Source of the DNA: Candidatus Omnitrophota bacterium
GTDB taxonomy: Bacteria; Omnitrophota; Gorgyraeia; B26-G9
Direction of reading: 5' to 3'
Assembly: GCA_016213925.1 (NCBI GenBank)
Contig: JACQZH010000042.1
Location: 1 to 57,816 of the forward strand
DNA length: 57,816 bases
Shown here one piece after another: positions 30,126 to 54,583 of the stretch (the first letter of the stretch is position 1; each line of letters begins with the position of its first letter). A program made the position numbers and the translations under genes. A model generated the notes under the pieces. It saw only the letters and a program-made list of their open reading frames with translations. It did not search any database and was not told where the DNA came from.

Positions 30126-30200
30126 CTGAAGCGCGTCCGAACACTTACGATCAGCCAACCGACGCCGTTTAATCCGATGTATTATCAAACTACGAGTTAA
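30126..30200 (+). other. orphan serine-recombinase C-terminal tail (left end of an older element)
   Basis: Encodes LKRVRTLTISQPTPFNPMYYQTTS*, 12/22 identical to the attL tail at 31753-31818. Confidence 0.7.
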
Positions 30201-31350
30201 TGCTTCCGGCATTTCTGTAACTGAAAACATCGGCTGTCTGGCGATGCTGATCTTCAGTGCCGCCATATATCAATGCCGGTTTTCCCGTATTCTTTTTATT
30301 CAGCTTCTGGTAATAGCGCAATCCTTTGAAATAATCCTCGTTGATCGTGCTTCCCAACTTCACTTCAACCGGCTTAATGGATGTGCCGTCCTCAAGGAGG
30401 ACATCAACCTCATTGCCGACATTGTCGCGAAAGAAATAGATATTGCTGTTCTTACCTTGATTTGTCCGGGCCTTCAAAAGCTCGGCAACAACGAAATTTT
30501 CAAATAACGAACCTTTAAGCGGGTGCTGTGCAATATGCTTGGCGTCTTGTATATCCAAAAGATACGATGCCAACCCGCAATCGGTAAAGTATAACTTTGG
30601 CGCTTTAATAAGCCGCTTGCCGAAATTGGTGTGGTGCGGACGCACAAGAAATATAATGTAGCTCGCCTCAAGCACGCTTAACCAGCTTTTAGCTGTGTTA
30701 TGATTAATACCGCAATCATTGGCCAGATTCGATAAATTCACTATCTGCGCCACTCTGCCAGCGCACAGTTTGATGAATTTCTCAAATTTCGCAAGATCCT
30801 TCACATTAATAAGTGCCCGGATATCCCTCTCAAGGTAGGTACTCACATAAAAGGAAAGAGCCTCGGACGGATTAAGCTTCTTATCGTGGATCCGGGGATA
30901 AAAGCCGGTAAAAAGAACCTTATCTATAGGCTTTGCCTTGTCAGAATAAATTTCAGCGTATGAGAACGGCAAAAGAACCGCCAGCGCAGTCCTTCCGGCA
31001 AGGCTCTGGCTAACCGTATTTAAAAGGTGAAAGTTCTGGCTTCCGGTCAGAATAAAATGGCCGGGCTTGTCTTTTGTGTCTACGATCTCCTGAATATACG
31101 ATACCAACTCCGGAACACGCTGAATTTCATCAATGATAGCACCATCTTTGTGGCATTCGGCAAGAAAAGCCCTCGGATCATTCTTTGCGTAATTGCGGGT
31201 ATCTATGTTCTCCAAAGAAAAATACTGCCTCTTTGGGAATAATGCCTTGCAAAGAGTCGTCTTGCCTGATTGGCGCGGCCCGGTGATGGTAACGACTGGA
31301 TATTGGCGCGCGTAATGCAGGATCTTCTCTGAAATGGTTCGTTTTATCAT
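30190..31350 (-). CDS. AAA_14 ATPase with DUF4143 domain
   Basis: GPRQSGKT, IIDEIQ, LTGS, YLERD, K.PKLYF.D.G, EVD and EVK motifs. Confidence 0.93.
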   Translation of the reverse strand: MIKRTISEKILHYARQYPVVTITGPRQSGKTTLCKALFPKRQYFSLENIDTRNYAKNDPRAFLAECHKDGAIIDEIQRVPELVSYIQEIVDTKDKPGHFILTGSQNFHLLNTVSQSLAGRTALAVLLPFSYAEIYSDKAKPIDKVLFTGFYPRIHDKKLNPSEALSFYVSTYLERDIRALINVKDLAKFEKFIKLCAGRVAQIVNLSNLANDCGINHNTAKSWLSVLEASYIIFLVRPHHTNFGKRLIKAPKLYFTDCGLASYLLDIQDAKHIAQHPLKGSLFENFVVAELLKARTNQGKNSNIYFFRDNVGNEVDVLLEDGTSIKPVEVKLGSTINEDYFKGLRYYQKLNKKNTGKPALIYGGTEDQHRQTADVFSYRNAGSINS

Positions 31351-31941: not shown

Positions 31942-33267
31942 CTAAGCCGGTATGCAAATTTTTAATTCGGAATCGAATATTTTAAGCGTTTTGCCATTTG
32001 CGCCATTAAAACAATTACACTCTTCCAGAATATGTTGCAGATTATTTTTCTGTTCTTCCTTTTTTAACAAAATATTTAATGCGCGGGGCGTATCATTAAA
32101 GTCGATTTTCAGCTCATCAGGAAAGGTAGTTTTAGGAAAATTCTTATATTTCCATTCATAATTAATACAACATTCTAATTTATCAGTATCTTTTGGTGTA
32201 AATTCAACTAATGGCCTGCTCCACATTGATAGTTCATCGGCAAATATAAGAAGAGTCGCGATTGGTGTTTTTAATTGGCAATTGTGATCAAAAAAATGCC
32301 TATGGTCTTCCGATACATGACCGAGATGAAGATATTTTTTTCGTTTAGTTAAATCATGCAATAAACAAGCCTCGGCGGCTATTTGAAATGCAATATACAA
32401 CTCTGTGTTGATTATCTGAGATTGATAAAGATCTTCCGCAATATCCAACACCATTAATGATGAAGCCACGGAATGATTTAATGGAAGGCAATCGTGAATA
32501 AAACCACAGGGGATATTTTCCCGCCTCATCTTTTTCAATCTTTCATCTGATTCTTTATCAAGGTCTTGTTTAGTACGCTGATACCACTCATGATGTTCAA
32601 TTATGAACCGTGCCAACAAACTTTTATTTATTACCTTGCTTCGTATTTTTGTAATATCCATAGAGTCGCAACCAACCAGATTCAATTTAAAAAGTCTTTC
32701 CTCATAGGTACGTAAAAATTTATAGCCGTAACCAAAATCATGAAAAATAGCTGCTAGGAAAACAGCGGCCGACATAATAGTTTGTTTTTTATCTTCATGA
32801 AAATATATTTTCTCCTCTTTGCACCATTGCTTAAAATGAGCGCAATCAAATTGCCACTTCACCATAGCATCATTCCAAAATTTATGGAATAATTCATCAC
32901 AAACAAAAGTTACTTTAAGCATATGCACGAAATGATCCCTATAGTCTGAATCTTCGGGTTCCACATAATTTAACCACTCGATATACGCAAGTTCTTCAAT
33001 GTGTTGTGCCAAAGGAGGAAATACCTTACTAAAAACTACCGAATACGCTAAGGCGCAGTATTCCATCTCATGAAAATAATTAGACGGAACTGATTCTTTC
33101 AACTTTTCGAATATAAAACACTTATTTTCTGACTTATTCCTAAATTCTCTACCCGTAACATAACGCTCAACGTCTATCATGTCATCGAAATAAGTCACAT
33201 TATCTTTAATAAGCCCAGATATCCACTTCCAAAATTCTTCATTGGAAAAAGTGGTTTGCTTAGTCAT
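31942..33267 (-). CDS. HD-domain phosphohydrolase (gene 3 of the candidate defence cassette)
   Basis: YRDHFVH, AAIFHDFGY, NHSVAS, LLHD, LLIFADEL, giving the H...HD...H...H...D pattern. Confidence 0.8.
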   Translation of the reverse strand: MTKQTTFSNEEFWKWISGLIKDNVTYFDDMIDVERYVTGREFRNKSENKCFIFEKLKESVPSNYFHEMEYCALAYSVVFSKVFPPLAQHIEELAYIEWLNYVEPEDSDYRDHFVHMLKVTFVCDELFHKFWNDAMVKWQFDCAHFKQWCKEEKIYFHEDKKQTIMSAAVFLAAIFHDFGYGYKFLRTYEERLFKLNLVGCDSMDITKIRSKVINKSLLARFIIEHHEWYQRTKQDLDKESDERLKKMRRENIPCGFIHDCLPLNHSVASSLMVLDIAEDLYQSQIINTELYIAFQIAAEACLLHDLTKRKKYLHLGHVSEDHRHFFDHNCQLKTPIATLLIFADELSMWSRPLVEFTPKDTDKLECCINYEWKYKNFPKTTFPDELKIDFNDTPRALNILLKKEEQKNNLQHILEECNCFNGANGKTLKIFDSELKICIPA

Positions 33268-33295
33268 TTGTAAATCCCATTTTTATCATCTTCAT

Positions 33296-34225
33296 CTATA
33301 TTTTTTCTATCTCTAAGCACCATTTTTGAAAAGGAGTAGGGTGCTCACGGCTCTCTGGACTATTGATCAAGTGATTGACAGTTTCTAGTATTTGCTCTAT
33401 ATCAAATTCCTCAGCCAGAGATGCTGTATCTTTAAGTTTATCAAGAATTTTTTCGTCTACTTTGCGCTTTTCTTGTAAGGACTTTAAATCACTCAATATC
33501 TCTGTTAATTTGAATGCTGGATTGCGTGATCCAGCGGCCGAGAATTTATTAAACAGAATGCTGTTCGCCTTTAACCACTCTTCACGCACCTCTTTATTTA
33601 TGGCTACATATATTTGCGATAATGTTGAAAATAAAGCACGGTAGTCAGGTCTATCCGGGGAAGTAACAAAAATTGAGTGCTTCTTGAATTTATATTTTTC
33701 TATTTCATTGAATTTTATCTCTCGCATGGCCTGGGACATACCGTAAAGACCCGGAGGAGTATCGATAATGAGTGTCTCAAAATTATTCTGCGCAAGAAGC
33801 TCTAAAATATCTCGCATCCTACTTCGAAAGAAATGTAGCCTCTCCTCTTGAGAGATTAAGGCAACAATGATTTTAAGATCCTCAAATATAGAACTAGAAG
33901 GCATAAAGAAAATTTTCTTGTGCTTAGCAATAGGTATGCAAAAATCGCTTCCAACTCGCTCGGGTTCCTTTTTATATTGCCTAAACACTAACGGATCGGA
34001 TAAAAGCAATTCATTCAAATAGCGGACGTTATTTTTTTCTTTGCTAAAAATATCAACAAGGCTTGTTCCTGTTATATCGCCATCAATAATAAGTGTCTTT
34101 TTGTCTTCTTTAAGTGCTACCCATCCGGCTTTAGCCAATGCAACAGATGTCTTACCTACACCGCCTTTTTGGGAATGTATCGTGTAAATTTTAACTTCTG
34201 TTTTTTGTTTTTGAGGTTCCATCAT
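33296..34225 (-). CDS. ParA/MinD-family ATPase (gene 2)
   Basis: Deviant Walker A SQKGGVGKT, LIIDGD, IIDTPPG, NK. Confidence 0.9.
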   Translation of the reverse strand: MMEPQKQKTEVKIYTIHSQKGGVGKTSVALAKAGWVALKEDKKTLIIDGDITGTSLVDIFSKEKNNVRYLNELLLSDPLVFRQYKKEPERVGSDFCIPIAKHKKIFFMPSSSIFEDLKIIVALISQEERLHFFRSRMRDILELLAQNNFETLIIDTPPGLYGMSQAMREIKFNEIEKYKFKKHSIFVTSPDRPDYRALFSTLSQIYVAINKEVREEWLKANSILFNKFSAAGSRNPAFKLTEILSDLKSLQEKRKVDEKILDKLKDTASLAEEFDIEQILETVNHLINSPESREHPTPFQKWCLEIEKI

Positions 34226-34237
34226 TTTGTTCTTTGT

Positions 34238-37200
34238 TTAAGATAAATCATTTAAAATACGGCGAAAATTTTCTCGGCTGCTTAATGGAACATATGATAA
34301 AAATGACTCTAAAACTGGAGCCATCCTTTTTAATATATCCCGCACTTTTCTATTATCTGCCTTATTAGCATTTAATACGGGTGTTAAGACGGCGTAATCT
34401 CCGCCAATCAGAACAAATATCAGTAAGTAGCTAATGATTAATTCATTTATTTCATCATTGCAAAGCAGATAATCAATATTCTTGAATTGTTCGCAAAAAA
34501 CAGGTGTCCACGTAAGATTCCTTTTTATTTGCAAAAACAATAATATTTCCGAGAATGCCCCACAATTCGACGATGCCAAAGGAAGTTCAAATCCGCAAGT
34601 TTGCCTTAAAATCGTATTATCCTTTTTAAATGCGTCCAATTCATTAGGATATTCCTTCTCTTCGTGAGACAATAAAAATACTTTTAATGAAGAAATTACC
34701 ATGGTAACGATTGGTTGCTGGCTACCCTTGATATACTCAGAAAGCTTTGGCAGTTCTGTTGTTAGGAAATCTTTAGCTGAAGTAAATTTCGCAAGATCGC
34801 ATACCTTTTCAGCATCTGCAAGCCCTTTATTAACTTTTTCTCCTAAAAAACCAATTGCTTCCCCATAATATTTTTTAAAGAAACCTGGAACAGATTTGGA
34901 CAATGGTATATTCCAATGCAATCCTAAAATCTTGGAACCTTCCGGAATTTGACTGTTTCCAGTCCATATATCTTTTGCCAGCTTATTCATGATCGTATTG
35001 CTAATATGCGGGTTGAGCGCATCTATGGGAAACCTAAGACCTTTCAACGCATTATTGGATTCAATATCTCCGTCCTCTGCTATAGCAAATAATGCACAAA
35101 CAGCATAGCTCAATAAGTCCGCCTTATTGACTGTGAGATACCTCGACGCAGCAAAACTCGGCTTTGCATTGATAAAGTGATGCCTAAATTGCATCAACGA
35201 AAAGACGTTTTGTTCATTTTTTAGAATACTACTTATGTATGCGGCTTTGTTTTCCGTTGTTAATTTTTCACCTGATTTCGTAATACTAATAACAGTTTCT
35301 CGAGCCATCCACCAAGCAAGTGCAACTTTTCTCTCATCATCATAATCGATATGCATGTTAAGATCGAGATACCGCAAGTAGTAAATTGCCAATTCCCTAC
35401 GTAACGACCATATCAATTGCATAAGCGCCATTTCTGGTATATGCAAATTATTTTGTGGCTTATTAGCAAATAATAATCTTTCAAAAATTGCATCTAGAAA
35501 GTCATAAAATTCCTTGTTAGTAAAATCACTTTTAGCATCATCTTTTGCATCAGCGCGGGCATTAAGAACTATTTCCAGTATCAAAAGCCACGCTAAATGA
35601 TCTTCTTTTTTAAAATTCTCTATCCACTTTTTTGTAAGTTCCAAAATTTCACGGGAAGATATACCATTTATCGTATCTTTTAATATCGCGTAAATACCTT
35701 TTTGAGAAAAATAAGGCACAAAATATACATTATCCAAATACCAATTTAAAATACTTTCAAGGTCATCATTCCCCTGGATTTTCTTCTCTATTCTTTGCCC
35801 AATAGCGTCTTTATCAAATGGATCGTCAAGCAATAGTGGTAAACTACTAATAATCGATTCAGTACCGGGCTCAAGCGCACTTTTTAACGCCATACCTATA
35901 AATGCTCGGCGATCTTTACTGGAAATACGTTGATCGCTCAATTGCTTTAGCATATACTGCGCATAGAGAAAGTCTTTAAGTAAAGAATCTGAAATTTCAC
36001 GGGCAGCAAGTGGCCAAACGAATGGTTTTTCAGAAACAATGTTATCGTACCGATCTTTAATTATTTTCTTGGTGTATCCAGAAATAAATGTGGCATCTAA
36101 TAATTCATTTGCGACGGTTTTTCGTATTTCTATCGAATCTGCTCCTATTAAATCATGAAGAACAAGCAGCTCCCCGCCTTTTTTTTCAGAAGGAGGAATA
36201 AAAATAAGTGGGCCTGCCTTGAAGTCTTCAACAGTAGCCACAGCTCTTTCGGGTGGCATCTCAGACAAAGCGCCTACTATATCCTTAATTGCCTCCTCAG
36301 ACAATGTAGGTCGCGGCGATGAATCATCTTCTTTTTTACGAGAAATACCCACATCAAATTCCTGCAAATAGGGAATTAATCTTTCGTCAATTTGAGCCCC
36401 TTGCAAATCTCCATAAAATGCCCTTAGCATCTGTAATGTAATAATCTTGCCTAAATCTTTACTAAAATTATCCTTGATTCCTTTCTTCAAGAAAAATATT
36501 AATGTGTCGATCCTTTTTTCGTATGAAAAACCTAGACTGTCGAAAGCTTGATCAAGTAACTTTTTAAATCCCACAGGGCTTTTTTGGCCAATAATTCCGA
36601 TAAACAGATGTTGTATAATTGAGTTTTCCGTCATTGCCGTGATATTACTTCGAATATCTTGCTGCAAACCTTGTGGCCCTTGTGGGAAAGCACGTAGAAA
36701 AACTTGCCTTGTTATCTCATCTCGCTTCTCTTCACTAAATGCGGGATCTGTCCAGATATTTATGAGAGCGTCTATCCAGACATTCACCCACTGCATGTAG
36801 AATTTCACCCCACAAAGCGTTGGTGGAATTGTTGGCTCTCTACCAAGGAAAAGCCCATTATCTTTCATGCATTCATTACTATATTTAATGAGGGCTTCCA
36901 GCGGTTTCCCTAAAGGATTATTCTTATATTCTAAAGCAAAGAAAATGATTATTTCAGAAGTAGGTATTAAAAAACGGTAGCGCCACTCACATAATTTTAA
37001 GAAAGCTTGCGAATACTCTTCAAGTGAAATGATTTTATCTTCAAATAGGCTCTGTAGTAATGTATCAGACCCAAATTGCTTATTTATTGGGTGTTTTACT
37101 ATTTGCATCTGAATAAACCGGTCATCAACTAAAAGTGGCAGTTCTTTTCTTTCAGCCAACTGAAATGTTTCAACCGTAAGGATATCGTAAATATGAAGAC

Positions 37201-40200
37201 TCTTCATTTTTTGAGTTTCTTCTTTGATAAAAACGTGTTCCGGAATAAATAACCTATTGTTTCCTTTTTTAGTATCTTTGAGTAGCGCCAATAACTCCTT
37301 CTGCCATTGCGCAACTCTGTCAAAAAAAACAACCTCACGGATTTTCCTTTGGATATTTTGCCACACAGTCTTTTCTACAACAATTTTTAATCCAGCGTCA
37401 TTTATTAAATCAATTAAGTCGTATCGTTCGGCTAATTCTAGCGTAATCTCATCAAAAACTAATCGCACAGCCTTATCAAAGATATCATTTAGTCCAGTAG
37501 TTGTTATATCTTCTTTGTCCTGAATGATTTTCTTTAGTTCTAAATAACGTGCTTCGCGTATCCTACCTTTTTCATATAATCGCGAAAGAATCTGATGAAA
37601 ACGTATAACAATTACTGATGAATTTTCTGGAATCTCTTCCTTCTCAAGATACGCAGAAACTAAAGGAAGATTTTCTGCTTCTGCCAAACGAATGGCTAAT
37701 TTAACTTCGGTATCTTTATGTGAATCTGGAAGACTGATATGTTTTATCAAATCGCTATCGAATTTCTTTTCCAAGTTTTTAAATATTTTTTCTTGAGATG
37801 CCTGGATTGGCTTATACTTTTGCTTATCTTCTTCCAAAGCCAGATGCAGAATATCAGGATAATATATTGCATCAAATTTACTTATCAATTTAGGTATTAA
37901 TCCCAATTGGTGTAGCGTGATTAAAGCAGTGTAATCTATTACAATATTTTTTATATTCGAAGGGATACAGATAGGGACTAGTTTATTTTTTTCTACCCGA
38001 AATCCATTGGTCGAATATGTCGTAAATTCTGGTCTCGTTGATTCTTCGGGTAAAAACGCCAATGGCTGCGTCCGATACGCCCAATCCAGATATAGTGGGA
38101 TATTAAAAAAACTGCTGAAAAAATAACGCAAGGCCTTTCCTTGGCTATACTGTTCGCATAACTTTTTTCTAGACTCATAGCGACGATGAACCATATCCTT
38201 GATTTCATCCAGAGAAACAGCCCTAAATACCTGATCCTGAATTTTTCCTGCCTGTTTTAATTGTTCGAGTCTCATTAATGCCTTGTGAGCTTTTTCTTCT
38301 TCTCCGATCCGGAACCCCAAATCAACATATTCCAATAGTAAAGCTGGTTCATCCTGAAAACGCTCGAAACAATTATCAAGTGTTTCAAAAGCGCTTTTTT
38401 CTTTATCGCTAGCCCGCAAAATATGTGCCGCTAATCGTAGGCATTTCAGATTTACTTCTTTGCCACATTTGATAAATGCTTTTATTATTTCGATGGCTTC
38501 ATTATATTTTTCTTGTACTGATAGTACTTCTGCATAGCCATAAGCAAGCTCTGGATCTTGAGGATTATTTTTTACCAGACTATTCCATGCCTGCTCTGAT
38601 TTCGCATAATACCCCAAGTTCCTGGCTGAAATAGCTTTGTAATACATTGTTGTATTATCACTTATCCCCAATATTTCTAATTTTTCGGCGGTTTCAAAGG
38701 CTCCTTTGTCATTCTCCAATTTCATTTGAACCTTGAGCAGCTCTCGTAAAATAAATTGATCTGGATATATTCTTTGGCTCTCCCCAAGAAGCTGCTCCGC
38801 AATTTGATATTCACCTTTTTTTATAGCTTCTACCGCGTGCCGGTATTTACACAATATCTGCAAATGAGGCGGCGGATTTTGGGCTTCAATCTCAGAAATA
38901 AGCTTGAGCGCATCATCGGAATTGCCCTTCGACTCCTGATAACCTGCTTCCAAATATTTCCGCCACAAGCTGTCCGGAGAAAGATATTCATAAATTATTC
39001 TCTGCGATTCTTCTTGTTTTTTAATCTGATTACCAATGTCAAAAATAATTCCTGCGGCACGTTCTTTTTCTGTATCATCTGACGTAAGTTCTAATACTTT
39101 CTTGGCATTTTCCCAGGCATTTTTAGCATCATTCAACCTCTGACTCTGCAAAAAAGCCATTATCAACAATGCCCAGGATTGTTCGGGGTAATCGCCGGAA
39201 AGAGCGATAACTATACTTTTAACAATATCTTCATCGATTAAACTTCCTCTAGACGCTACATATTCAGCAACTTCGTGAGCAATAGGGCGAACTGAAATTA
39301 TATATTTTGCCGCCTTATCGGCACTCTTATAATCTCCGAGAAAATTCAAGGCTTGCATTTTTGTTACTAATGCGCGATAAGCAAAATAATAATCTTTTAA
39401 ACTATTTTTTATTGCAACCCCATATTCTTGGGAAAATATTTTTTCTGCACTTTCCACGGATTTTTCGCAAAGAATCTTTCCTTCGCTATCTATATCCTGA
39501 GCATAAACAACTCTATCAGTCTTGCCTGTGGATTTAAGTGCTCGTCTAAAATAGGCGTCTGACATAAACGCACAAACCTTATCGTAAAAATGCTCATTTT
39601 TATACAAAGAGGTTGCGATAGAATCATTTTTCTTTTTTTCCTCAAAATCTAATAAAAAATCGTTATACTTCTTCTCTGCTTCACTAATATTGCCTGTCAT
39701 TACCAAAATATATAATGCCTCTGCCAACCATGGGGTTTTTATTTCATTCTTCAAGATAAAATCAGATCCCATTTCAAACTTTTCAGTGTCAATCAGCAAA
39801 GTTAACCAAAAAGAAATGGTTTTATCATCCTTTGAATGAGAAACAAGATCAATTGATGCGTCCGCCTTTCCTTCAAATAACAAAAGTTTTGCTGTTACTC
39901 GAGCTAATCTTTCTTTCCACTTTGATTGGTTTGTAATATTTTGATAGACAGTATTGGCCTTATCATAATATTTCCGCGCCTCACTTATATATCCTTTGCG
40001 TTCTAAATTTAAGAAAACATCAGTCAATGTAATAAAGCCTTCCAATTTTGATTCTTCATTGAGTGCGTCATTTTTATCGCTTAAATAGCGCGATAATTCC
40101 TCGGCATGTTTCTTCATAACTTCTTGGGTAGGCATACATCCATCGCCCCACACCTTATTGCAAATTTCCTTTACTTTCGCATCGCAGACATCTGCAAGAT

Positions 40201-41152
40201 CTTTTTCTAATCGCTCCACCTGAATAGTTTTAAAAGTAATTTGGGTAATAAAATCTGTTGGCGTTTCTTGCAATTTTTTCTGAAGAACTAACCTGTTTAG
40301 ATCATTGAGAGTTTCGACAATCTCATTATGATTTTCGATAATAATAACGTGGAATCCCTTGCTTTTAAATTCTTCAAATAAAATTTCAAAGTCAGCGATC
40401 TCGACAAGATAATCGTCATAAGGTATTTCTTCCCTTTGTTCAGGAAATTTTAAAAATATACAGGGGGCCCTCCGAAATTCTCCAAATCTTTTCAATACAT
40501 ACTCATCGGCGTCCCTCAATCGTTGATCTGTAAAACTTGTTCCGACAAAAAGCAATGTGTTTTGCACTGCTTTTGACTTTAGCCATTCATTAAAAGAAGA
40601 ATGTTCTAACTTATATTTGAGATAATCGTTCGAGGTGATAATAATTGAGGATGGAGAGTTAATATCGCCGTGTAACTTTACAACTGTCTTTTTCACAGGA
40701 ACAATAGAGGGAATATCCCAATCCTGAATAATAATGGCTGGTGCAATTCCTTCTTTACGAAAAGCATCTTCGAGCACACTATCATAGTTCGTTGTAATAA
40801 ATAAATTTGTATCCAGACTTATTAATGTCTTGTGAAGGGTTTCAGGAGAATGTGGATGTGTTTTTATCCTTTCTGCAATTTCTTCTCGAAAGGGCAACGC
40901 TCCGATTTCTTTTTCAATCTTTGTTGCAATTCTCAATAAGTCTTTTTCCTTGGTTTTTATTTTAAACTTAAGTTGGATATCAGATATTAATTTAGTCCAT
41001 AGTGGCAGTCCTATTGCAACTGAGCAGCCTGCACCAATAAAAATAGCCAACCGTTTTTTCAATAGCTCATCAGCTAAATATACAACAGCCTTTTCATTTG
41101 CTTCTTTGCTCTTTTGAAGAAATTGTATTTTTTTGTCTATGGTTTTTTTCAT
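34238..41152 (-). CDS. 2304-aa SIR2 - TPR - tandem PIN-like protein (gene 1)
   Basis: SIR2 motifs IFIGAGCS, ITTNYD, KLHG, FVGTSFTD; TPR-like helical repeats; PIN-like IVIDYTAL (~aa 1070), LVFDEITL (~1230), LPLLVDDRF (~1340); ~900-aa unassigned helical C-terminus. Confidence 0.8.
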   Translation of the reverse strand: MKKTIDKKIQFLQKSKEANEKAVVYLADELLKKRLAIFIGAGCSVAIGLPLWTKLISDIQLKFKIKTKEKDLLRIATKIEKEIGALPFREEIAERIKTHPHSPETLHKTLISLDTNLFITTNYDSVLEDAFRKEGIAPAIIIQDWDIPSIVPVKKTVVKLHGDINSPSSIIITSNDYLKYKLEHSSFNEWLKSKAVQNTLLFVGTSFTDQRLRDADEYVLKRFGEFRRAPCIFLKFPEQREEIPYDDYLVEIADFEILFEEFKSKGFHVIIIENHNEIVETLNDLNRLVLQKKLQETPTDFITQITFKTIQVERLEKDLADVCDAKVKEICNKVWGDGCMPTQEVMKKHAEELSRYLSDKNDALNEESKLEGFITLTDVFLNLERKGYISEARKYYDKANTVYQNITNQSKWKERLARVTAKLLLFEGKADASIDLVSHSKDDKTISFWLTLLIDTEKFEMGSDFILKNEIKTPWLAEALYILVMTGNISEAEKKYNDFLLDFEEKKKNDSIATSLYKNEHFYDKVCAFMSDAYFRRALKSTGKTDRVVYAQDIDSEGKILCEKSVESAEKIFSQEYGVAIKNSLKDYYFAYRALVTKMQALNFLGDYKSADKAAKYIISVRPIAHEVAEYVASRGSLIDEDIVKSIVIALSGDYPEQSWALLIMAFLQSQRLNDAKNAWENAKKVLELTSDDTEKERAAGIIFDIGNQIKKQEESQRIIYEYLSPDSLWRKYLEAGYQESKGNSDDALKLISEIEAQNPPPHLQILCKYRHAVEAIKKGEYQIAEQLLGESQRIYPDQFILRELLKVQMKLENDKGAFETAEKLEILGISDNTTMYYKAISARNLGYYAKSEQAWNSLVKNNPQDPELAYGYAEVLSVQEKYNEAIEIIKAFIKCGKEVNLKCLRLAAHILRASDKEKSAFETLDNCFERFQDEPALLLEYVDLGFRIGEEEKAHKALMRLEQLKQAGKIQDQVFRAVSLDEIKDMVHRRYESRKKLCEQYSQGKALRYFFSSFFNIPLYLDWAYRTQPLAFLPEESTRPEFTTYSTNGFRVEKNKLVPICIPSNIKNIVIDYTALITLHQLGLIPKLISKFDAIYYPDILHLALEEDKQKYKPIQASQEKIFKNLEKKFDSDLIKHISLPDSHKDTEVKLAIRLAEAENLPLVSAYLEKEEIPENSSVIVIRFHQILSRLYEKGRIREARYLELKKIIQDKEDITTTGLNDIFDKAVRLVFDEITLELAERYDLIDLINDAGLKIVVEKTVWQNIQRKIREVVFFDRVAQWQKELLALLKDTKKGNNRLFIPEHVFIKEETQKMKSLHIYDILTVETFQLAERKELPLLVDDRFIQMQIVKHPINKQFGSDTLLQSLFEDKIISLEEYSQAFLKLCEWRYRFLIPTSEIIIFFALEYKNNPLGKPLEALIKYSNECMKDNGLFLGREPTIPPTLCGVKFYMQWVNVWIDALINIWTDPAFSEEKRDEITRQVFLRAFPQGPQGLQQDIRSNITAMTENSIIQHLFIGIIGQKSPVGFKKLLDQAFDSLGFSYEKRIDTLIFFLKKGIKDNFSKDLGKIITLQMLRAFYGDLQGAQIDERLIPYLQEFDVGISRKKEDDSSPRPTLSEEAIKDIVGALSEMPPERAVATVEDFKAGPLIFIPPSEKKGGELLVLHDLIGADSIEIRKTVANELLDATFISGYTKKIIKDRYDNIVSEKPFVWPLAAREISDSLLKDFLYAQYMLKQLSDQRISSKDRRAFIGMALKSALEPGTESIISSLPLLLDDPFDKDAIGQRIEKKIQGNDDLESILNWYLDNVYFVPYFSQKGIYAILKDTINGISSREILELTKKWIENFKKEDHLAWLLILEIVLNARADAKDDAKSDFTNKEFYDFLDAIFERLLFANKPQNNLHIPEMALMQLIWSLRRELAIYYLRYLDLNMHIDYDDERKVALAWWMARETVISITKSGEKLTTENKAAYISSILKNEQNVFSLMQFRHHFINAKPSFAASRYLTVNKADLLSYAVCALFAIAEDGDIESNNALKGLRFPIDALNPHISNTIMNKLAKDIWTGNSQIPEGSKILGLHWNIPLSKSVPGFFKKYYGEAIGFLGEKVNKGLADAEKVCDLAKFTSAKDFLTTELPKLSEYIKGSQQPIVTMVISSLKVFLLSHEEKEYPNELDAFKKDNTILRQTCGFELPLASSNCGAFSEILLFLQIKRNLTWTPVFCEQFKNIDYLLCNDEINELIISYLLIFVLIGGDYAVLTPVLNANKADNRKVRDILKRMAPVLESFLSYVPLSSRENFRRILNDLS

Positions 41153-41196: not shown

Positions 41197-43581
41197 TTAA
41201 TTCGCGGCTACTTCATACAAATACTTCTGAAACTCAATAAACGTCGTCCGGATATTATCGACGCCGCCTAAGGCTTCTTCTGCATCGCGAATGGCCTGAT
41301 ATTTCAAGGTCAGCAGATCAGGAAGCTTCTCTTGATCAAGCTCTTCAACGCCGGTCTCAATGTACTTAGACAGCACAAACTCAAGGAACTCTTTGTGCTT
41401 GTTATCCAATCCTCGGAAAATCTTTGTCTGGGCATTGGCGACACGCTCTTCTCGACTGATTGGTTTTACTGCAAAGGAGATATACTCAAGCACATCAAAT
41501 AAATCGCTATTCTCAGCGTTAATTAATTTCTGTAAACTAATTAGAACATCTACTCCGTAACCGGCATCAAAAAGCTTTTCAAGTAATATCTTGCGTGTTA
41601 CCGGACTTGACCAGATCTTTCGAAGCTCATCTTCGCTTTTGAAGAACTCGGGCAAGGCACCGAATATCCCCTTTAAAAACTCCTCCGCTGAAATCGGCTT
41701 GCCGTCTGCGCTCCAAAACGATGTCGCGATCATGTGCTGAATTTCGCGCTCTTTGCCGTCACGAAGCTTAATCTTTACCTTTTTAGGACACTCACAAGGA
41801 CTCTTGCCGCATTTAGGGCAAACAGGCGGCGGATCTTTTATACAGACGCATGGTCGTTGGCCGCAACGTGGGCAAACCCGGGGAGGATTCTTCTCACATA
41901 CGCAGGGATTCTCACCACACTTGGGGCAGACTTCAACGATTGGCTCGCCGTCCCATTCCGGATCAGCAAAGTGATGATACGCGTCCACAAAATCATAAAT
42001 GGTGAAATAATCCTTACCGTCAAATAACCGTGTGCCACGACCAATGATCTGCTTAAACTCAATCATAGAATTGATAGGCCGCATAAGGATAATATTACGG
42101 ATATTCCGGGCATCGACTCCGGTAGAGAGCTTTTGAGAGGTTGTCAGTATTGTCGGGACAGTTTTCTCGTTATCCTGAAACTCCCGCAAATATTGCTCCC
42201 CAAGCTTACCGTCATTGGCGGTGACTCGAACGCAATAATTCGGTTCCGTGCTTTTCTTATACTGATTAACCAATTCCCGCACAGCCATTGCATGATCCTG
42301 ACTGGCGCAAAAGACAAGAGCTTTTTCATTCTGATTGATTTCTGAGAGAAATATCTGCACCCGCTTGGCTTCGCGCTCTTTGATCTCTATAATTTTGTTA
42401 AAATCTGGCTCGGTATAGATTTTGCCTTCTTCTACTTCGCCCTCGATGATCTTGTCATCCGAGGTGTAAACATAATCGTCAATCGTCGTCTTAATACGCT
42501 TAACCTTGAACGGAGTCAAGAATCCATCATTAATGCCTTCTTTAAGCGAATAGACATACACCGGATCGCCAAAATAGCGGTAAGTATCCACATTGTCCCG
42601 ACGTTTAGGCGTTGCAGTTAACCCAAGCTGAACAGCTGGAGAGAAATATTCCATAATACCGCGCCAATTACTTTCGTCATTCGCCCCGCCGCGGTGACAT
42701 TCGTCTATAACGATAAAATCAAAATAATCTGCTGGATATTCACCAAAATATGGCGCGGGTTTGCCGTCTTTATCTTTCCCACTCATAAAGGTCTGGAAGA
42801 TAGTAAAGAAAATACTGCCGTTAGTCGGAACACTGCCTTTTTTGCTGATTTCTGTGGGGTTAATTCGAACGAGCGCGTCCTCGGGGAATGCTGAAAAGGC
42901 GTTGAATGCCTGATCAGCAAGAATATTTCTATCAGCAAGGAATAGAATGCGCGGCCTGCGGCTTCCGTCACGCTTCAAATTCCAGCGTGTTTGATAGAGT
43001 TTCCAAGCTATCTGAAAAGCGATAAAAGTTTTGCCTGTGCCGGTAGCCAAGGTAAGCAACATGCGCGGCTTATCTTCAGCAATGGCGGCCATTGCGTTAT
43101 TAACTGCGATTTCCTGATAATAACGTACTTCTTTTGTGCCGCCAACATCTTCAAACGGCACTTGACTGAATTTATCCCGCCATTGGTTTTGAGTGTCAAA
43201 AGTCTTATTCCACAACTCATCCGGAGATGGGAAAGCGGCAACTGGTCCTTCTTTGCCGGTCTTCATGCAGATCTGGTAAATCTCTTTGCCGTTACTGGCA
43301 TAAGTCGTATCAAGATGCATCATTCCGGCATAGTTTTTGGCTTGCGCAATGCCTTCGCCGACTTCGAGCTCATTGCTTTTGGCTTCAATAATAGCAAGCT
43401 TACGGCCACGATATACCAGCACATAATCCGCGATTAGCGGTTTGGCGCGTCCTCCGCCGGTCTGTATTTTCCCGGCAGTGATTTTATATTCCCGCAAGAC
43501 TTTTGTGCTATCGACCACGCCCCAGCCGCTGGCTTTGAGCTTCGGGTCAATATATTCCGCTCTGGTTTCGGCTTCGTTCAT
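41197..43581 (-). CDS. hsdR: type I restriction subunit R (EcoAI/EcoEI-like)
   Basis: NEAETR..IDP, ADY...IEAK, RYYQ, ATGTGKT, DECHRG, TATP, QIIGRGTR, EcoEI-like C-terminus; ATGA overlap with hsdS. Confidence 0.95.
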   Translation of the reverse strand: MNEAETRAEYIDPKLKASGWGVVDSTKVLREYKITAGKIQTGGGRAKPLIADYVLVYRGRKLAIIEAKSNELEVGEGIAQAKNYAGMMHLDTTYASNGKEIYQICMKTGKEGPVAAFPSPDELWNKTFDTQNQWRDKFSQVPFEDVGGTKEVRYYQEIAVNNAMAAIAEDKPRMLLTLATGTGKTFIAFQIAWKLYQTRWNLKRDGSRRPRILFLADRNILADQAFNAFSAFPEDALVRINPTEISKKGSVPTNGSIFFTIFQTFMSGKDKDGKPAPYFGEYPADYFDFIVIDECHRGGANDESNWRGIMEYFSPAVQLGLTATPKRRDNVDTYRYFGDPVYVYSLKEGINDGFLTPFKVKRIKTTIDDYVYTSDDKIIEGEVEEGKIYTEPDFNKIIEIKEREAKRVQIFLSEINQNEKALVFCASQDHAMAVRELVNQYKKSTEPNYCVRVTANDGKLGEQYLREFQDNEKTVPTILTTSQKLSTGVDARNIRNIILMRPINSMIEFKQIIGRGTRLFDGKDYFTIYDFVDAYHHFADPEWDGEPIVEVCPKCGENPCVCEKNPPRVCPRCGQRPCVCIKDPPPVCPKCGKSPCECPKKVKIKLRDGKEREIQHMIATSFWSADGKPISAEEFLKGIFGALPEFFKSEDELRKIWSSPVTRKILLEKLFDAGYGVDVLISLQKLINAENSDLFDVLEYISFAVKPISREERVANAQTKIFRGLDNKHKEFLEFVLSKYIETGVEELDQEKLPDLLTLKYQAIRDAEEALGGVDNIRTTFIEFQKYLYEVAAN

Positions 43582-44558
43582 GAGCATACTCCTGCGAGTT
43601 CACCATTAAATACTTTTTGTAGTATCGATTTTTTTAATTCTTCCAGATCCCTCAACTTCTGATGATAAATAACCTCGAGTCTTTTTGTTTCGACAGATAG
43701 AGCATCGAGCTTGGCGACAATGCATTTTTGTTCAGTGAGAGATGGGAAAAAACTGGAGTAGGAAAATAAATGTTCCCGATTAACCTTTGGCATACCCGCT
43801 CTAGCAGAACCTTTTATTGCAAAATCAGTAAACTCTTTTGTTAGGAGTAAGAAGTACAAAAAGTCTCTGTCTAGTATTGAAGCTATGGGTTTTAAGGGAT
43901 ATATATCTGCACTACATAAACCTGAAAAGTCTGGTCGCGCTACTTTCACTAAATATGGACGTATTTTGCTATAAAGGATCATTAAATTATTGAAAGTAAA
44001 TTTTCCAGAAATCAATTCTTCTTCTCTTGATGTTTTCAAATCAATCAAGCGCCCTGTCATGCTCTCAATGTTTGCTCCACCAACATGATATTGATCAACA
44101 TATAATTCTTCTCGTGGATCAATTAACTTTGAAGAGATTTCACACACTTCACCCAGTTTTTTTTCCTCCCATCCATCGCCCGGATTGGCAAAGACGCTCT
44201 GCAAATATGACTCGAAAAGCTCATGGGCGTTTTGCAAATGTTTTGATACTGTCTGCTTAAGATAGCCATCCAAGATGAGAAATAAAAACCGTGGTGAAAT
44301 ATTTTTAAAATTTAATAACACATAGGTTCTTTGATATGCCTCAAATTTCCCTTTGTAGTAACTAACCGCTCCCACATCTCCATTGCCAGCAATCAAAAGC
44401 GCTTCTGTATCAAATGAAAATTCGTCGCTATAGGTATGTTCTCTAGCGCATGTAAAAAATGGGAATTCTCCGTTTGGGTTTCCTTGATTGACATCCTTCT
44501 TGCCAGTTTTAATCTCACATACTTCCCCCAGTTTTTTCACTTCCCAGTTTTTCTTCAT
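43578..44558 (-). pseudogene. hsdS: type I specificity subunit with an apparent in-frame central deletion
   Basis: Two W..KKLGEVCEI repeats, but only the second TRD is followed by P.L.EQ..IV..LD. The first is fused directly to HLQNAHELFES near 44240; total length only 326 aa. Confidence 0.7.
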
Positions 44559-48651: not shown

Positions 48652-48858
48652 ATGGCAATGTTTGCCAAGCAGTTTAGCGGATCGAAAATGTTATCCAAAC
48701 AGGCAATCGAAGAATTTCAGGAAATCTACTTAAAGACCTACGGCAGAGAGCTGTCGTTTGATGATGCCGCGGAGCAGGCGCATCAGCTCATCCGCTTTTT
48801 AAAGTTCGCTTTAGGGTATCCGTTAGACTACCAGACAAAGGACGTGAATGATGAATGA
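48652..48858 (+). CDS. small hypothetical protein upstream of the primase (start may be 48688)
   Basis: LS..AIEEFQ.IY...YG..LS..DA helical pattern; overlaps the primase start. Confidence 0.6.
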   Translation: MAMFAKQFSGSKMLSKQAIEEFQEIYLKTYGRELSFDDAAEQAHQLIRFLKFALGYPLDYQTKDVNDE

Positions 48859-52083: not shown

Positions 52084-52260
52084 ATGCCTGAATATTTAAA
52101 AATCCATGAAGCGGCGGACCTGCTTAAGATCACCAAGCAGACATTGCGCAATTGGGATAAGCAGGGCAAGCTAACGCCTCACCGCCATCCTCTCAACAAT
52201 TACCGTCTGTATAAGAAGTCTGATTTGATTAAGCTTTTAAACAAGATCGAGAAGAAATGA
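52084..52260 (+). CDS. MerR-type HTH protein, candidate recombination directionality factor
   Basis: I.EAADLL.I...TLRNWD..GKL...R...N.YRLY; AAGGAG RBS; ATGA overlap with the recombinase. Confidence 0.8.
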   Translation: MPEYLKIHEAADLLKITKQTLRNWDKQGKLTPHRHPLNNYRLYKKSDLIKLLNKIEKK

Positions 52261-53831: not shown

Positions 53832-53897
53832 CGGGATTCGAACCCGCGGCCCCAAGAACCACAATCTTGTGCTCTAACCAGCTGAGCTACATCCACC
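53820..53897 (-). tRNA. tRNA-His (GTG)
   Basis: G-1 plus GTGGATG/CATCCAC acceptor stem, anticodon arm CAAGA-ttGTGgt-TCTTG, GGTTCGAATC, encoded CCA. Confidence 0.97.
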
Positions 53898-54526: not shown

Positions 54527-54583
54527 AACCTTCGACATCTTGGTCCCAAACCAAGCGCTCTAGCCAAACTGAGCCACGCCCCG
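54506..54583 (-). tRNA. tRNA-Pro (TGG)
   Basis: CGGGGCG/CGCCCCG acceptor stem, CTTGG-ttTGGga-CCAAG, GGTTCGAATC, CCA. Confidence 0.97.

What the first reader, a model, noticed from the sequence alone, without database searches (positions are those of the whole stretch)
31942..41152. Candidate undescribed defence system: SIR2-TPR-PIN-PIN giant protein + ParA/MinD ATPase + HD phosphohydrolase
Seen: three uninterrupted, co-oriented genes with 12- and 28-nt gaps, starting 44 nt after hsdR inside an integrative element. They look AT-richer than the backbone and have no stops or frameshifts, while neighbouring hsdM, hsdS and the AlbA gene are broken. Established: SIR2 domains are NAD+-depleting effectors in Thoeris, DSR and SIR2-HerA; TPR arrays sense phage proteins; TPR+PIN giants occur in the GreAB-C-PIN conflict systems. 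Inference: a sensor-effector protein paired with an ATPase switch and a nucleotide-processing HD enzyme. I do not recognise this combination as a named system.
Basis: partly seen in the sequence, partly recalled or inferred. Interest (0 to 1): 0.88.

Follow-up and report, generated by a model that had tools for sequence, protein, structure and literature searches.

The report
Conserved SIR2 giant, ParA, HD cassette
Three adjacent genes (a 2304-residue protein with NAD-cleaving and RNA-cleaving domains, a ParA-like ATPase and an HD metal-dependent hydrolase) recur together in the same order in many uncultured microbes, which suggests an unnamed three-part relative of a published but little-tested class of predicted anti-virus proteins.

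Summary
Three intact, co-oriented minus-strand genes lie at 34238-41152 (2304 aa), 33296-34225 (309 aa) and 31942-33267 (441 aa). The gaps are 44, 12 and 28 nt, and GC is 0.33-0.39 against 0.41-0.45 in the flanks.

The order giant-ParA-HD is conserved. A ParA homologue lies directly upstream of the HD gene in 22 of 24 evaluable metagenome loci. A giant lies upstream of ParA in 19 of 19. Protein identity falls to about 24-38% and flanks differ.

The giant comprises:
- a ThsA-type SIR2 domain with N122 and H161 conserved;
- a TPR array;
- a double PIN of the published TPR-GreAB-C-PIN (TGP) class;
- a roughly 760-aa alpha-solenoid extension that about 1100-aa TGP proteins lack.

ParA keeps an intact deviant Walker A. 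The HD protein keeps an H..HD..H..HD..D motif set and an HD-superfamily fold. A ParA-HD complex model passed its controls (0.69 against 0.00).

PADLOC matched nothing beyond the SIR2 domain, and my literature searches found no description of the trio.

Verdict: a real, rare, mobile three-gene variant of the TGP class. A defence role and the mechanism are inferred, not shown.

The parts
34238..41152 (-). Giant gene, 2304 aa (P0001): SIR2, TPR, conserved linker, double PIN, alpha-solenoid extension
   Evidence: Uninterrupted ORF. Full-length homologues are 2282-2340 aa.
40274..41098 (-). SIR2 NADase domain, residues about 19-293, ThsA type
   Evidence: PADLOC ThsA 1.6e-40 over residues 19-293. 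Pfam SIR2_2 1.1e-23. PDB ThsA 6lhx 1.3e-24, with N122 and H161 aligned to chain residues 112 and 152. H161 is invariant and N122 is at least 90% conserved in 21 giants.
38201..40255 (-). Helical / TPR region, residues about 300-984
   Evidence: Pfam TPR_14, TPR_16, TPR_19 and ANAPC3 hits at 836-927. NCBIfam PgaA TPR at 769-961. PDB LapB at 691-926. Residues 300-690 have no family hit.
37955..38200 (-). Conserved roughly 80-aa domain, residues about 985-1066, in the position where TGP proteins carry GreA/B-C
   Evidence: Invariant Y1002, Y1021, D1023, W1024, T1044, Y1046, T1048 and N1049 in 11 sequences. A profile search of PDB sequences gave no GreA/Gfh1 hit, so the identity is unverified.
37478..37951 (-). 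First PIN-like unit, residues about 1068-1225
   Evidence: PF20698 PIN-TPR-GreABC profile positions 1-32 match residues 1071-1102 at 25.9 bits, below the gathering score of 27.8. The same N-terminal match occurs in L088, L101 and L108. D1073 is at least 90% conserved.
37013..37462 (-). Second PIN unit, residues about 1231-1380
   Evidence: In homologues L084 and L100, PF20698 covers profile positions 1-131 and 6-132 of 138 at 35.7 and 36.2 bits, above the gathering score. These map to about 1236-1350 here. D1343 and D1344 are invariant and D1363 is at least 90% conserved in the 21 giants. E1260 is invariant in the 11-sequence alignment. D1234 is the majority residue.
36518..37012 (-). Conserved region that ends the TGP core, residues about 1381-1545
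   Evidence: W1390, R1391, Y1392 and F1394 are invariant. Proteins of about 1100 aa match the giant only up to about residue 1545, at their own C-termini. Four of 8 such proteins scanned carry TPR hits plus PF20698, and the other 4 carry TPR hits only, at E<=1e-4.
34241..36517 (-). C-terminal alpha-solenoid extension, residues about 1546-2304, specific to the giants
   Evidence: AlphaFold2 model of residues 1540-2304: mean pLDDT 87.0, pTM 0.83, nearly all helix. Only generic HEAT/ARM-type matches: Foldseek best karyopherin beta2 at E 6.6e-4 with TM 0.13, and VIA best Z 10.0. No Pfam family.
33296..34225 (-). ParA/MinD-like ATPase, 309 aa (P0002)
   Evidence: Pfam AAA_31, ParA, CbiA and ArsA_ATPase above their gathering scores. 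Invariant HSQKGGVGKTS (K20, K25), D48, D50 and D155 in 30 sequences. A distinct clade among the 85 database proteins matched.
31942..33267 (-). HD-superfamily metal-dependent hydrolase, 441 aa (P0003)
   Evidence: Invariant H112, H115, H176-D177, H265, H304-D305 and D344 in 32 sequences. AlphaFold2 pLDDT 86.3, pTM 0.91. VIA-align Z 9.4-6.0 to PPX/GppA, class I phosphodiesterases, HD-GYP, SAMHD1 and Cas3-HD. Pfam HD scores only 20.5 bits, below the gathering score of 22.

Best explanation
These three genes are one operon-like, horizontally mobile cassette. It is most likely an abortive-infection type anti-phage or anti-mobile-element system.

Sensor-effector. The giant is a member of the TPR-GreAB-C-PIN (TGP) class. 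It has a TPR array and a 760-residue alpha-solenoid as binding or sensing surfaces. It carries a double PIN ribonuclease module and an N-terminal ThsA-type SIR2 domain that would hydrolyse NAD+ once activated.

Partners. The two small proteins form a complex. The ParA-like ATPase has an intact deviant Walker A, so it is expected to dimerise on ATP. It binds the N-terminal helical domain of the HD protein through surfaces conserved only in this clade. I infer that the ParA-HD pair docks on the extension that only these giants have. I also infer that ATP binding and hydrolysis by ParA gate the system, and that the HD enzyme is a second effector, a phosphodiesterase or nuclease with a two-metal type motif set.

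Shown here: gene integrity, domain identities, conserved catalytic residues, strict synteny, sporadic distribution, and a complex model that passed its controls.

Inferred: the defence role, NAD+ depletion, RNA cleavage, the docking site, the gating role of ParA, and the HD substrate.
For: Synteny.
- I examined 31 metagenome loci fetched with the HD alignment.
- A ParA homologue lies directly upstream of HD, on the same strand, in 22 of the 24 loci that have at least about 770 nt upstream.
- A giant lies upstream of ParA in 19 of the 19 loci with sequence there.
- The three-gene order is seen in 11 of 21 clusters at >=90% nt identity.
- Locus GC ranges from 0.29 to 0.52, and protein identity to the window falls to 24-38%.
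- Spacing is tight or overlapping in all loci listed.
- Independent of the loci, ParA and HD database hits share the same longest-contig length in 10 cases. Giants share it in at least 4 cases.

Mobility and context.
- The HD family was found in 0 of 40 relatives and 0 of 400 other genomes sampled from the same phylum.
- Cassette GC is lower than its flanks.
- In the window it lies beside type I R-M genes, within about 13 kb of a serine recombinase and tRNA genes.
- Other copies lie beside Type ISP restriction genes (L089, L094), hsdM (L087), an integrase (L088) and an SMC_N/AAA_21 ATPase (L101).

Active sites.
- SIR2 N122 and H161 align to ThsA positions 112 and 152 and are conserved.
- PIN D1343 and D1344 are invariant and D1363 is at least 90% conserved in the 21 giants. 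E1260 is invariant in the 11-sequence set.
- ParA K20, K25, D48, D50 and D155 are invariant.
- The HD motif residues are invariant.

Link between extension and partners. Proteins of about 1100 aa match the giant only up to about residue 1545; 4 of the 8 scanned carry the PF20698 PIN. Kaur et al. 2021 state that TGP genes 'mostly occur as standalone genes' (PMC8195603 section 7).

ParA-HD complex model.
- Score 0.69 (three runs: 0.00, 0.72, 0.69). Best of 3 controls 0.00.
- The mark was reached by 58 of 80 solved complexes and 2 of 110 mismatched pairs. These counts hold only roughly because my own alignments were used.
- The runs agree in at least 0% of their contacts. Partner pLDDT is at least 69.
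- The interface includes clade-invariant ParA residues L75, P78, L123, Q126, L130 and R136, and the conserved HD residues W13, E67 and A72.
Against: - No experiment and no expression data are available.
- Two of 24 evaluable loci have no ParA upstream of HD (L109 and L111). Both carry only partial HD matches.
- One of three complex runs scored 0.00, and the runs' contact agreement is given as at least 0%.
- One copy (L084) sits between purH and an alcohol-dehydrogenase gene, not in a recognisable defence island.
- The window's own PIN match is below Pfam's gathering score.
- The GreA/B-C domain could not be verified.
- The HD fold matches are middling (Z <= 9.4) for a mostly helical protein, and Foldseek found nothing at E <= 0.001.
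- Docking of ParA-HD on the extension was not tested.
- Nine of the loci belong to one >=90% nt cluster, so independent lineages are fewer than loci.
Confidence: 0.6

Rival explanations
1. Same three-part system, but the roles are reversed. The giant is mainly the sensor. The ParA-HD complex is the principal effector. ATP-bound ParA dimers bind DNA non-specifically, as partition ParA proteins do, and bring a Cas3-like HD nuclease onto phage or host DNA. SIR2 and PIN act only as back-up.
For: - The HD protein keeps a five-motif H, HD, H, H(D), D pattern. By my recollection this is the pattern of two-metal HD nucleases and phosphodiesterases.
- There are weak matches to Cas3 HD: PADLOC E 0.015, and VIA Z 6.0-6.2 to 4q2d, 8wth and 3skd.
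- ParA keeps all ATPase residues.
- The ParA-HD complex model passed: 0.69 against a best control of 0.00; 58 of 80 solved complexes and 2 of 110 mismatched pairs reach the mark, roughly; contact agreement at least 0%; partner pLDDT at least 69.
Against: - The best fold matches are phosphodiesterases and the PPX/GppA domain (Z 9.4-8), not nucleases.
- No DNA-binding feature of this ParA was tested.
- SIR2 and PIN catalytic residues are conserved, which argues that they are used.
Confidence: 0.2
2. The giant is a self-sufficient TGP defence protein. ParA-HD is a separate two-gene module (its own defence, toxin-antitoxin or maintenance function) that merely travels beside it.
For: - TGP proteins are reported as mostly stand-alone (PMC8195603 section 7).
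- A TGP protein with a small partner (Agp/Bab) is reported to act without any ParA or HD (bioRxiv 10.1101/2024.11.07.622273, passages read).
Against: - A giant lies upstream of ParA in 19 of 19 loci with sequence there. Gaps are small or overlapping across copies of 24-94% identity.
- Every HD homologue with at least about 770 nt of upstream sequence and a full-length match has ParA beside it.
- The giants that carry the partners also carry a 760-aa extension that the roughly 1100-aa forms lack.
- The three proteins diverge in step from the window's copies.
Confidence: 0.1
3. The cassette is not an immune system. It is a housekeeping or regulatory module, for example control of NAD or RNA turnover or of cell-cycle or partition functions through the ParA-like ATPase.
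For: - ParA/MinD ATPases usually act in positioning or partition (general knowledge).
- One copy lies between purH and an alcohol-dehydrogenase gene (L084).
Against: - The family was not found in 0 of 40 relatives or 0 of 400 other sampled genomes of the phylum.
- The cassette has lower GC than its flanks.
- The window copy lies beside type I R-M genes, within about 13 kb of a serine recombinase. Other copies lie beside restriction genes or an integrase.
- The closest solved relatives of the SIR2 domain are anti-phage NADases: ThsA and KomC.
Confidence: 0.07

Closest known systems
TPR-GreA/B-C-PIN (TGP) conflict proteins with variable N-terminal effectors, including SIR2 (Kaur, Iyer, Burroughs, Aravind 2021, eLife; PMC8195603, section 7 read)
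   Same: - Same order of parts: N-terminal effector (here SIR2), TPR array, then the family-specific PIN (PF20698).
- PF20698 was found in 12 of 21 giants, and above the gathering score in two sub-region scans.
- The core is homologous to roughly 1100-aa proteins of the TPR + PF20698 type up to residue about 1545.
- An effector change is seen in this clade: TIR plus SIR2 in P0152, and no SIR2 in P0173.
   Different: - These proteins are about twice as long (2282-2340 aa for the full-length homologues), with a roughly 760-aa alpha-solenoid after the PIN region.
- They have two strictly conserved neighbours, ParA-like and HD. The paper describes the class as mostly stand-alone with few conserved neighbours.
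- The GreA/B-C domain was not verified here.
Agp/Bab of E. coli ECOR25, a TGP protein with an amyloid-signalling partner (bioRxiv 10.1101/2024.11.07.622273, passages read)
   Same: - A TGP-class protein working with a small adjacent partner gene.
- Reported there as anti-phage with abortive infection, which is the only experimental support for the class that I found.
   Different: - Agp is 1094 aa, has no SIR2 and no extension, and signals through an amyloid motif to the 109-aa Bab.
- Here the partners are an ATPase and an HD enzyme.
- I did not test for an amyloid motif.
Thoeris ThsA (SIR2-SLOG NADase; PDB 6lhx, 8bto)
   Same: - It is the best sequence match of the SIR2 domain: profile E 9.6e-41, single sequence 1.3e-24.
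- N122 and H161 align with chain positions 112 and 152. I recall these as the catalytic Asn and His of ThsA.
   Different: - There is no SLOG domain. The PADLOC ThsA profile is matched only over positions 6-282 of 478.
- No TIR-domain ThsB gene is adjacent.
- So activation by a ThsB-made nucleotide signal is not expected.
DSR2 (defence-associated sirtuin with a C-terminal alpha-solenoid that binds phage tail tube protein; PMC11850899, abstract seen in a search listing)
   Same: - A single large polypeptide with an N-terminal SIR2 NADase and a C-terminal alpha-solenoid.
- It works like a plausible model for sensing through the solenoid.
   Different: - NCBIfam Dsr2 scores 49.8 bits against a cut-off of 1400, over the SIR2 part only.
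- DSR2 has no PIN, no TPR-PIN core and no ParA or HD partners.
ParA/MinD (SIMIBI, deviant Walker A) ATPases, including the MinD/ParA-like domains noted in bacterial conflict systems by Kaur et al. 2020 (PMC7159879, passages read)
   Same: - KGGVGKT Walker A with the signature lysine, and conserved Asp residues.
- Pfam ParA, CbiA and AAA_31 score above their gathering scores.
   Different: - The conflict-system MinD/ParA-like domains described in that paper are fused domains and are predicted there to be inactive. This one is a separate protein with all ATPase residues intact.
- It has clade-specific conserved surfaces, predicted to hold the HD protein.
- It does not reach any NCBIfam cut-off. 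The best is KGGVGR-variant AAA at 38.3 bits against 90.

Membership tests
TPR-GreAB-C-PIN (TGP) system | TPR array in the constant region | tested here: met
   Pfam TPR families at 836-927. TPR_19 and ANAPC3 in 16 of 21 giants.
TPR-GreAB-C-PIN (TGP) system | Family-specific PIN domain (Pfam PF20698) | tested here: met
   The window protein scores 25.9 bits, below the gathering score of 27.8, over profile positions 1-32 only. Homologous sub-regions of L084 and L100 score 35.7 and 36.2 bits over profile positions 1-131 and 6-132 of 138. 12 of 21 giants match at E<=0.001. ESM Atlas neighbours carry PF20698 in 26-43% of members, score 0.92-0.94.
TPR-GreAB-C-PIN (TGP) system | GreA/B C-terminal-like domain between TPR and PIN | tested here: inconclusive
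   A conserved roughly 80-aa domain lies in that position. A profile search of PDB sequences gave no GreA/Gfh1 match at E<=10.
TPR-GreAB-C-PIN (TGP) system | Variable N-terminal effector domain (SIR2 is among those listed in the paper) | tested here: met
   SIR2_2 in 20 of 21 giants. One has TIR plus SIR2 and one lacks SIR2.
TPR-GreAB-C-PIN (TGP) system | Mostly stand-alone gene with few conserved neighbours (as described in PMC8195603) | tested here: not met
   ParA and HD genes follow the giant in 19 of 19 loci with sequence there.
Thoeris (ThsA/ThsB) | SIR2 domain with catalytic Asn/His | tested here: met
   N122 and H161 align to 6lhx positions 112 and 152. They are conserved.
Thoeris (ThsA/ThsB) | SLOG signal-binding domain in ThsA, and an adjacent TIR-domain ThsB | tested here: not met
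   The ThsA profile is matched only over positions 6-282 of 478. No SLOG or TIR family appears in the giant or in the neighbouring genes.
DSR2 | NCBIfam NF041819 equivalog score | tested here: not met
   49.8 bits against a cut-off of 1400, over residues 26-209 only.
ParA/MinD deviant Walker A ATPases | KGGxxGK[ST] motif with signature lysine, and a family HMM above threshold | tested here: met
   Invariant HSQKGGVGKTS. Pfam ParA 40.0 bits against 27.1, and AAA_31 40.6 bits against 27.
KGGVGR-motif variant AAA ATPase (NF047398) | Curated score and the KGGVGR motif | tested here: not met
   38.3 bits against a cut-off of 90. The motif here is KGGVGKT.
HD superfamily phosphohydrolases | H...HD...D metal-binding motifs on the helical HD fold | tested here: met
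   H115, H176-D177, H265, H304-D305 and D344 are invariant in 32 sequences. VIA Z 9.4 (rmsd 3.9, 167 aligned) to the PPX/GppA domain, Z 9.1 (5.3, 215) to PDE9A, and many HD-superfamily rows. Pfam HD itself scores only 20.5 bits against a gathering score of 22.
Cas3-type HD nuclease | Specific similarity to the Cas3 HD domain | tested here: inconclusive
   PADLOC Cas3 E 0.015. VIA Z 6.0-6.2 to 4q2d, 8wth and 3skd, below the phosphodiesterase rows.
Any named system in PADLOC-DB v2.0.0 | Model hits to all components | tested here: not met
   The giant hits only SIR2-bearing models: ThsA, LmuA, PDC-S25, PDC-S65 and SIR2. ParA hits PDC-M28B at 5e-4 over residues 5-52 and Csn2 at 9e-4. HD hits Cas3 at 0.015. 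DefenseFinder was not available.

The most novel reading that the evidence does not exclude
This is a new three-component immune architecture. A ParA-type ATPase, normally a positioning switch, has been recruited as the nucleotide-dependent gate of a TGP-class giant. It holds an orphan two-metal HD enzyme as a third effector on a dedicated alpha-solenoid dock. That would make it the first TGP system with an NTPase threshold and three catalytic outputs: NAD+ (SIR2), RNA (double PIN), and a nucleic acid or nucleotide (HD).
Probability: 0.3. Interest if true: 0.8.

Novelty: new variant of a known kind. Interest (0 to 1): 0.64.

Why it matters
TGP proteins are a widespread predicted immune class. 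I found only one experimental study of them (Agp/Bab).

This clade offers a version with clear handles for testing:
- two conserved partner proteins;
- a predicted ParA-HD interface built from clade-invariant residues;
- intact catalytic motifs in four enzymes;
- a discrete extension that correlates with the partners.

If it defends, it would add a ParA-type ATPase and an orphan HD family to the list of immune components. It would also show how a single-gene sensor-effector grows into a multi-protein system.

The cassette is rare. I found 53 HD clusters among 5.8 billion protein clusters. Contig titles and source names point to uncultured groundwater and sediment bacteria and some archaea, so homology-based defence finders are likely to have missed it.

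Tried and rejected
Searches that yielded nothing useful:
-, genome-contig scan with the ParA alignment. The tool chose the generic Walker A as its pattern and returned only ordinary ParA/MinD genes (22-50% identity in the best segment, mostly over the N-terminal half).
-, viral-contig scan with the HD alignment. 53 pattern matches, none a relative.
-, own relatives and phylum. The HD family was found only in the window's genome (0 of 40 and 0 of 400 others). This is 'not found in those searched'; many of those genomes are incomplete.
-, RF01959 on the window's own genome. It matched a partial SSU rRNA but could not tell archaeal from bacterial (the control rang in all 14 genomes). One search then settled it as bacterial.
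-, Foldseek of the HD model against PDB. Nothing at E<=0.001.
-, fold searches of the extension. Only generic alpha-solenoids, no enzyme fold, and the Z values lie within the range the tool warns is common for helical repeats.
-, profile searches of PDB sequences with the linker domain and with the double-PIN region. No GreA and no PIN structure was found. The only hit was toxofilin at 0.0012, which I take as spurious.
-, hhalign between the two PIN-like units. Only short weak matches (probability 12% and 1%). The duplication rests on the Pfam matches.
-, promoter and terminator scan. Counts equal to shuffles (35 against 35.4; 8 against 6.5), so no statement on transcription units.
-, sequencing runs. 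No RNA holder listed.
-, PADLOC. PDC-M28B and Csn2 for ParA and Cas3 for HD were rejected as noise or Walker A only.
-, NCBIfam. PgaA, Dsr2 and MinD matches were all far below their cut-offs.

Literature. Searches found no paper describing a SIR2-TGP giant with ParA and HD partners. One search found 0 papers holding at least 4 of 6 terms.

Readings considered and rejected:
- Thoeris, because there is no SLOG domain and no ThsB.
- DSR2, because the score is far below the cut-off.
- A plasmid partition ParA, because it is not on a plasmid-like contig, sits between the giant and the HD gene, and has no adjacent ParB.

Not done:
- A neighbourhood check of the second group of roughly 2060-2170-aa giants (no contigs available).

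Full report
**Observation.** The window has three uninterrupted minus-strand ORFs:
- 34238-41152, 2304 aa, P0001;
- 33296-34225, 309 aa, P0002;
- 31942-33267, 441 aa, P0003.

The gaps between them are 12 and 28 nt. The first gene starts 44 nt downstream of an HsdR gene at 41197-43587 (ResIII, EcoEI_R_C). GC of the 1-kb windows across the cassette is 0.33-0.39. The flanks have 0.41-0.45.

hsdM carries one in-frame TAG. The AlbA_2/HATPase_c_4 gene is split into two ORFs. hsdS is a single ORF with two Methylase_S stretches, and I see no break in it. A large serine recombinase at 52257-53831 abuts three tRNA genes, and a DUF5906 protein lies nearby. An integrative island is therefore plausible. 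The genome is bacterial (SSU_rRNA_bacteria, 784 bits), 2.27 Mb in 81 contigs.

**The giant.**
- Residues 19-293 are a ThsA-type SIR2 domain: PADLOC ThsA 1.6e-40, Pfam SIR2_2 1.1e-23, and a profile of 11 homologues against PDB sequences gives ThsA 6lhx at 9.6e-41.
- In the pairwise alignment, N122 and H161 fall on 6lhx positions 112 and 152. I recall these as the catalytic pair of ThsA. H161 is invariant and N122 is at least 90% conserved in 21 giants.
- TPR families match between about 690 and 961.
- A conserved roughly 80-residue domain follows at 985-1066. It sits where TGP proteins are said to carry GreA/B-C, but a profile search of PDB sequences found no Gre factor. I leave it unverified.
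- Two PIN-like units follow. The family-specific Pfam model PF20698 matches residues 1071-1102 with its first 32 positions, at 25.9 bits, just under the gathering score.
- In the homologous sub-regions of L084 and L100, PF20698 matches nearly full length, at 35.7 and 36.2 bits, at the position equivalent to about 1236-1350.
- D1343 and D1344 are invariant and D1363 is at least 90% conserved in the 21 giants. E1260 is invariant in the 11-sequence alignment.
- The ESM Atlas neighbours of residues 990-1560 are PF20698 and 'HTH_upstream_double_PIN' clusters.

**The extension.** I ran an exhaustive HMMER search with residues 1105-2304. It found 343 representatives.
- About two dozen are full-length giants.
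- Many proteins of about 1100 aa match only up to giant residue about 1545, at their own C-termini.
- I scanned eight of the latter. All eight have TPR hits. Four also have PF20698, starting near residue 645. That is the TGP layout and the size of Agp (1094 aa).

Residues about 1546-2304 are therefore an addition to the TGP core. AlphaFold2 models residues 1540-2304 with mean pLDDT 87.0 and pTM 0.83 as an almost purely helical solenoid. Fold searches return only generic HEAT/ARM-type proteins.

**The small proteins.**
- P0002 is a ParA/MinD-type ATPase, with four Pfam families above threshold. HSQKGGVGKTS, D48, D50 and D155 are invariant in 30 clade members. It reaches no NCBIfam cut-off.
- P0003 barely registers with Pfam HD (20.5 bits against 22).
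- Its family keeps H112, H115, H176-D177, H265, H304-D305 and D344 invariant in 32 sequences.
- Its model (pLDDT 86.3, pTM 0.91) aligns with HD-superfamily structures: PPX/GppA Z 9.4, PDE9A 9.1, HD-GYP 7.4, SAMHD1 7.3, Cas3 HD about 6. Foldseek found nothing at E<=0.001.
- The superfamily is clear. The subfamily and the substrate are not.

**Is the trio conserved?** Database searches gave 85 proteins for ParA, 53 for HD and 10 long proteins for the giant's C-terminal part. Nine of those ten are full-length giants with SIR2_2; the tenth is a 1270-aa protein with no Pfam domain on record. ParA and HD hits share the same longest-contig length in 10 cases. Giants share it in at least 4.

I then fetched 31 metagenome loci with the HD alignment and mapped all three proteins by tblastn and by HMMs.
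- ParA lies directly upstream of HD in 22 of the 24 loci with enough upstream sequence.
- The exceptions, L109 and L111, hold only partial HD matches.
- Seven loci begin too close to HD to tell.
- A giant lies upstream of ParA in 19 of 19 loci with sequence there.
- All 10 loci that reach the giant's N-terminus have SIR2.
- Full-length giants in the loci are 2297-2340 aa, and the genes are close-packed or overlapping.
- The loci form 21 clusters at >=90% nt identity, counting the window. The full order is visible in 11 of them.
- Nine loci fall in one cluster and are not independent. Even within it the flanks differ: purH in L084, and Type ISP restriction genes in L089 and L094.
- Only L082, a near relative at 85-96% protein identity, shares the window's hsdR.

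**Distribution and context.** The HD family was not found in 40 relatives or in 400 other sampled genomes of the same phylum. It was not found in viral contigs either.

Names attached by the sources to some homologues mention Promethearchaeota, Aenigmarchaeota, Thermodesulfobacteriota and marine sediment.

Neighbours of other copies include Type ISP restriction genes, hsdM, a tyrosine integrase and an SMC_N/AAA_21 ATPase. They also include plain housekeeping genes. This is the pattern of a mobile accessory cassette that often, but not always, sits with defence genes.

- The score was 0.69 (runs 0.00, 0.72, 0.69). The best of 3 controls scored 0.00.
- The mark was reached by 58 of 80 solved complexes and 2 of 110 mismatched pairs. 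These counts hold only roughly because my own alignments were used.
- The runs agree in at least 0% of contacts. Partner pLDDT is at least 69.
- The interface joins ParA 75-85 and 118-136 to HD 9-22 and 53-91.
- These stretches hold clade-invariant residues: L75, P78, L123, Q126, L130 and R136 in ParA, and W13, E67 and A72 in HD.
- The model supports binding. It does not show it.

**Comparison with what is known.** Kaur et al. 2021 (PMC8195603, section 7 read) defined the TPR-GreA/B-C-PIN system. They list SIR2 among 13 alternative N-terminal effectors. They describe the genes as mostly stand-alone. They propose binding to RNA polymerase, transcript cleavage by PIN, and effector release as a back-up.

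The Agp/Bab preprint (passages read) reports anti-phage abortive infection for a 1094-aa TGP protein with an amyloid partner.

The present giants meet the TPR, PIN and effector criteria. They fail the 'stand-alone' description, and they add an extension and two partners. They are not Thoeris (no SLOG, no ThsB) and not DSR2 (49.8 bits against 1400).

PADLOC-DB v2 has no model for the ParA or HD proteins. My six literature searches found no description of the trio.

**Mechanism, with its status.**

Shown: four sets of catalytic motifs are intact and conserved, the three genes are inherited as a unit, and ParA-HD binding is supported by a model that passed its controls.

Inferred:
- The giant senses an invader cue through its TPR or solenoid surfaces, or through RNA polymerase as proposed for the class.
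- It cleaves RNA with PIN and depletes NAD+ with SIR2.
- The ParA-HD complex docks on the clade-specific extension.
- ATP-dependent ParA dimerisation gates the system.
- HD is an additional phosphodiesterase or nuclease effector.

The main rival keeps the parts but makes ParA-HD the chief, DNA-directed effector. Separate-module and non-immune readings are less likely, given the synteny and the sporadic distribution.

**Verdict.** The feature is real and well above chance. It is a new variant of a known kind. Confidence is 0.6 for the three-part defence reading, and much lower for any single mechanistic step.

Noticed in passing
window 45113-45115 (minus strand), within hsdM 44555-46009: hsdM is interrupted by a single in-frame TAG (…GKERE*VQQNF…). 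The two ORFs are contiguous in one frame and carry the two halves of the N6_Mtase profile. This could be a nonsense mutation or read-through; I did not test which.
   Followed up: partly
window 52257-53831 (+), and tRNAs at 53820-53896, 54004-54080 and 54506-54583 (-): A large serine recombinase (Resolvase, Recombinase, Zn_ribbon_recom) has a 3' end that overlaps tRNA-His, next to tRNA-Arg and tRNA-Pro. This is a likely edge of an integrative island that holds the R-M genes and the cassette. No repeat or attachment-site search was made.
   Followed up: partly
window 48848-50896 (+) and 30190-31350 (-): A 682-aa protein with DUF5906 and a 386-aa AAA_14/DUF4143 ATPase flank the R-M plus cassette block. 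Three further ORFs between 47388 and 52030 have no Pfam family.
   Followed up: no
window 46079-46903 and 46954-47292 (-): An AlbA_2 (Schlafen-like) N-terminal piece and a HATPase_c_4 + HTH_24 piece lie in two separate ORFs. This looks like a split gene.
   Followed up: no
proteins P0189-P0294, alignment A6: A second group of 15 long TGP-like proteins (about 2060-2360 aa). PF20698 is present in 11 of 15, none has SIR2, and 2 have Mrr_cat. Their consensus resembles the giants beyond the PIN region too. Whether they have ParA/HD neighbours is unknown.
   Followed up: partly
protein P0152 (2447 aa) and P0173 (2089 aa): One giant carries a TIR domain in front of its SIR2 domain, giving two NAD-directed domains in tandem. 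Another has no SIR2 and starts with a helical region.
   Followed up: partly
L084 versus L089 and L094: Copies whose HD genes are >=90% identical in DNA sit in different flanks: purH and an alcohol dehydrogenase in one, Type ISP restriction genes in the others. This suggests recent movement of the cassette.
   Followed up: partly
L084-L086 (ParA), L090 and L094 (HD): Some metagenome copies have ParA or HD split over two frames. These are frameshifts, either assembly errors or decay.
   Followed up: no
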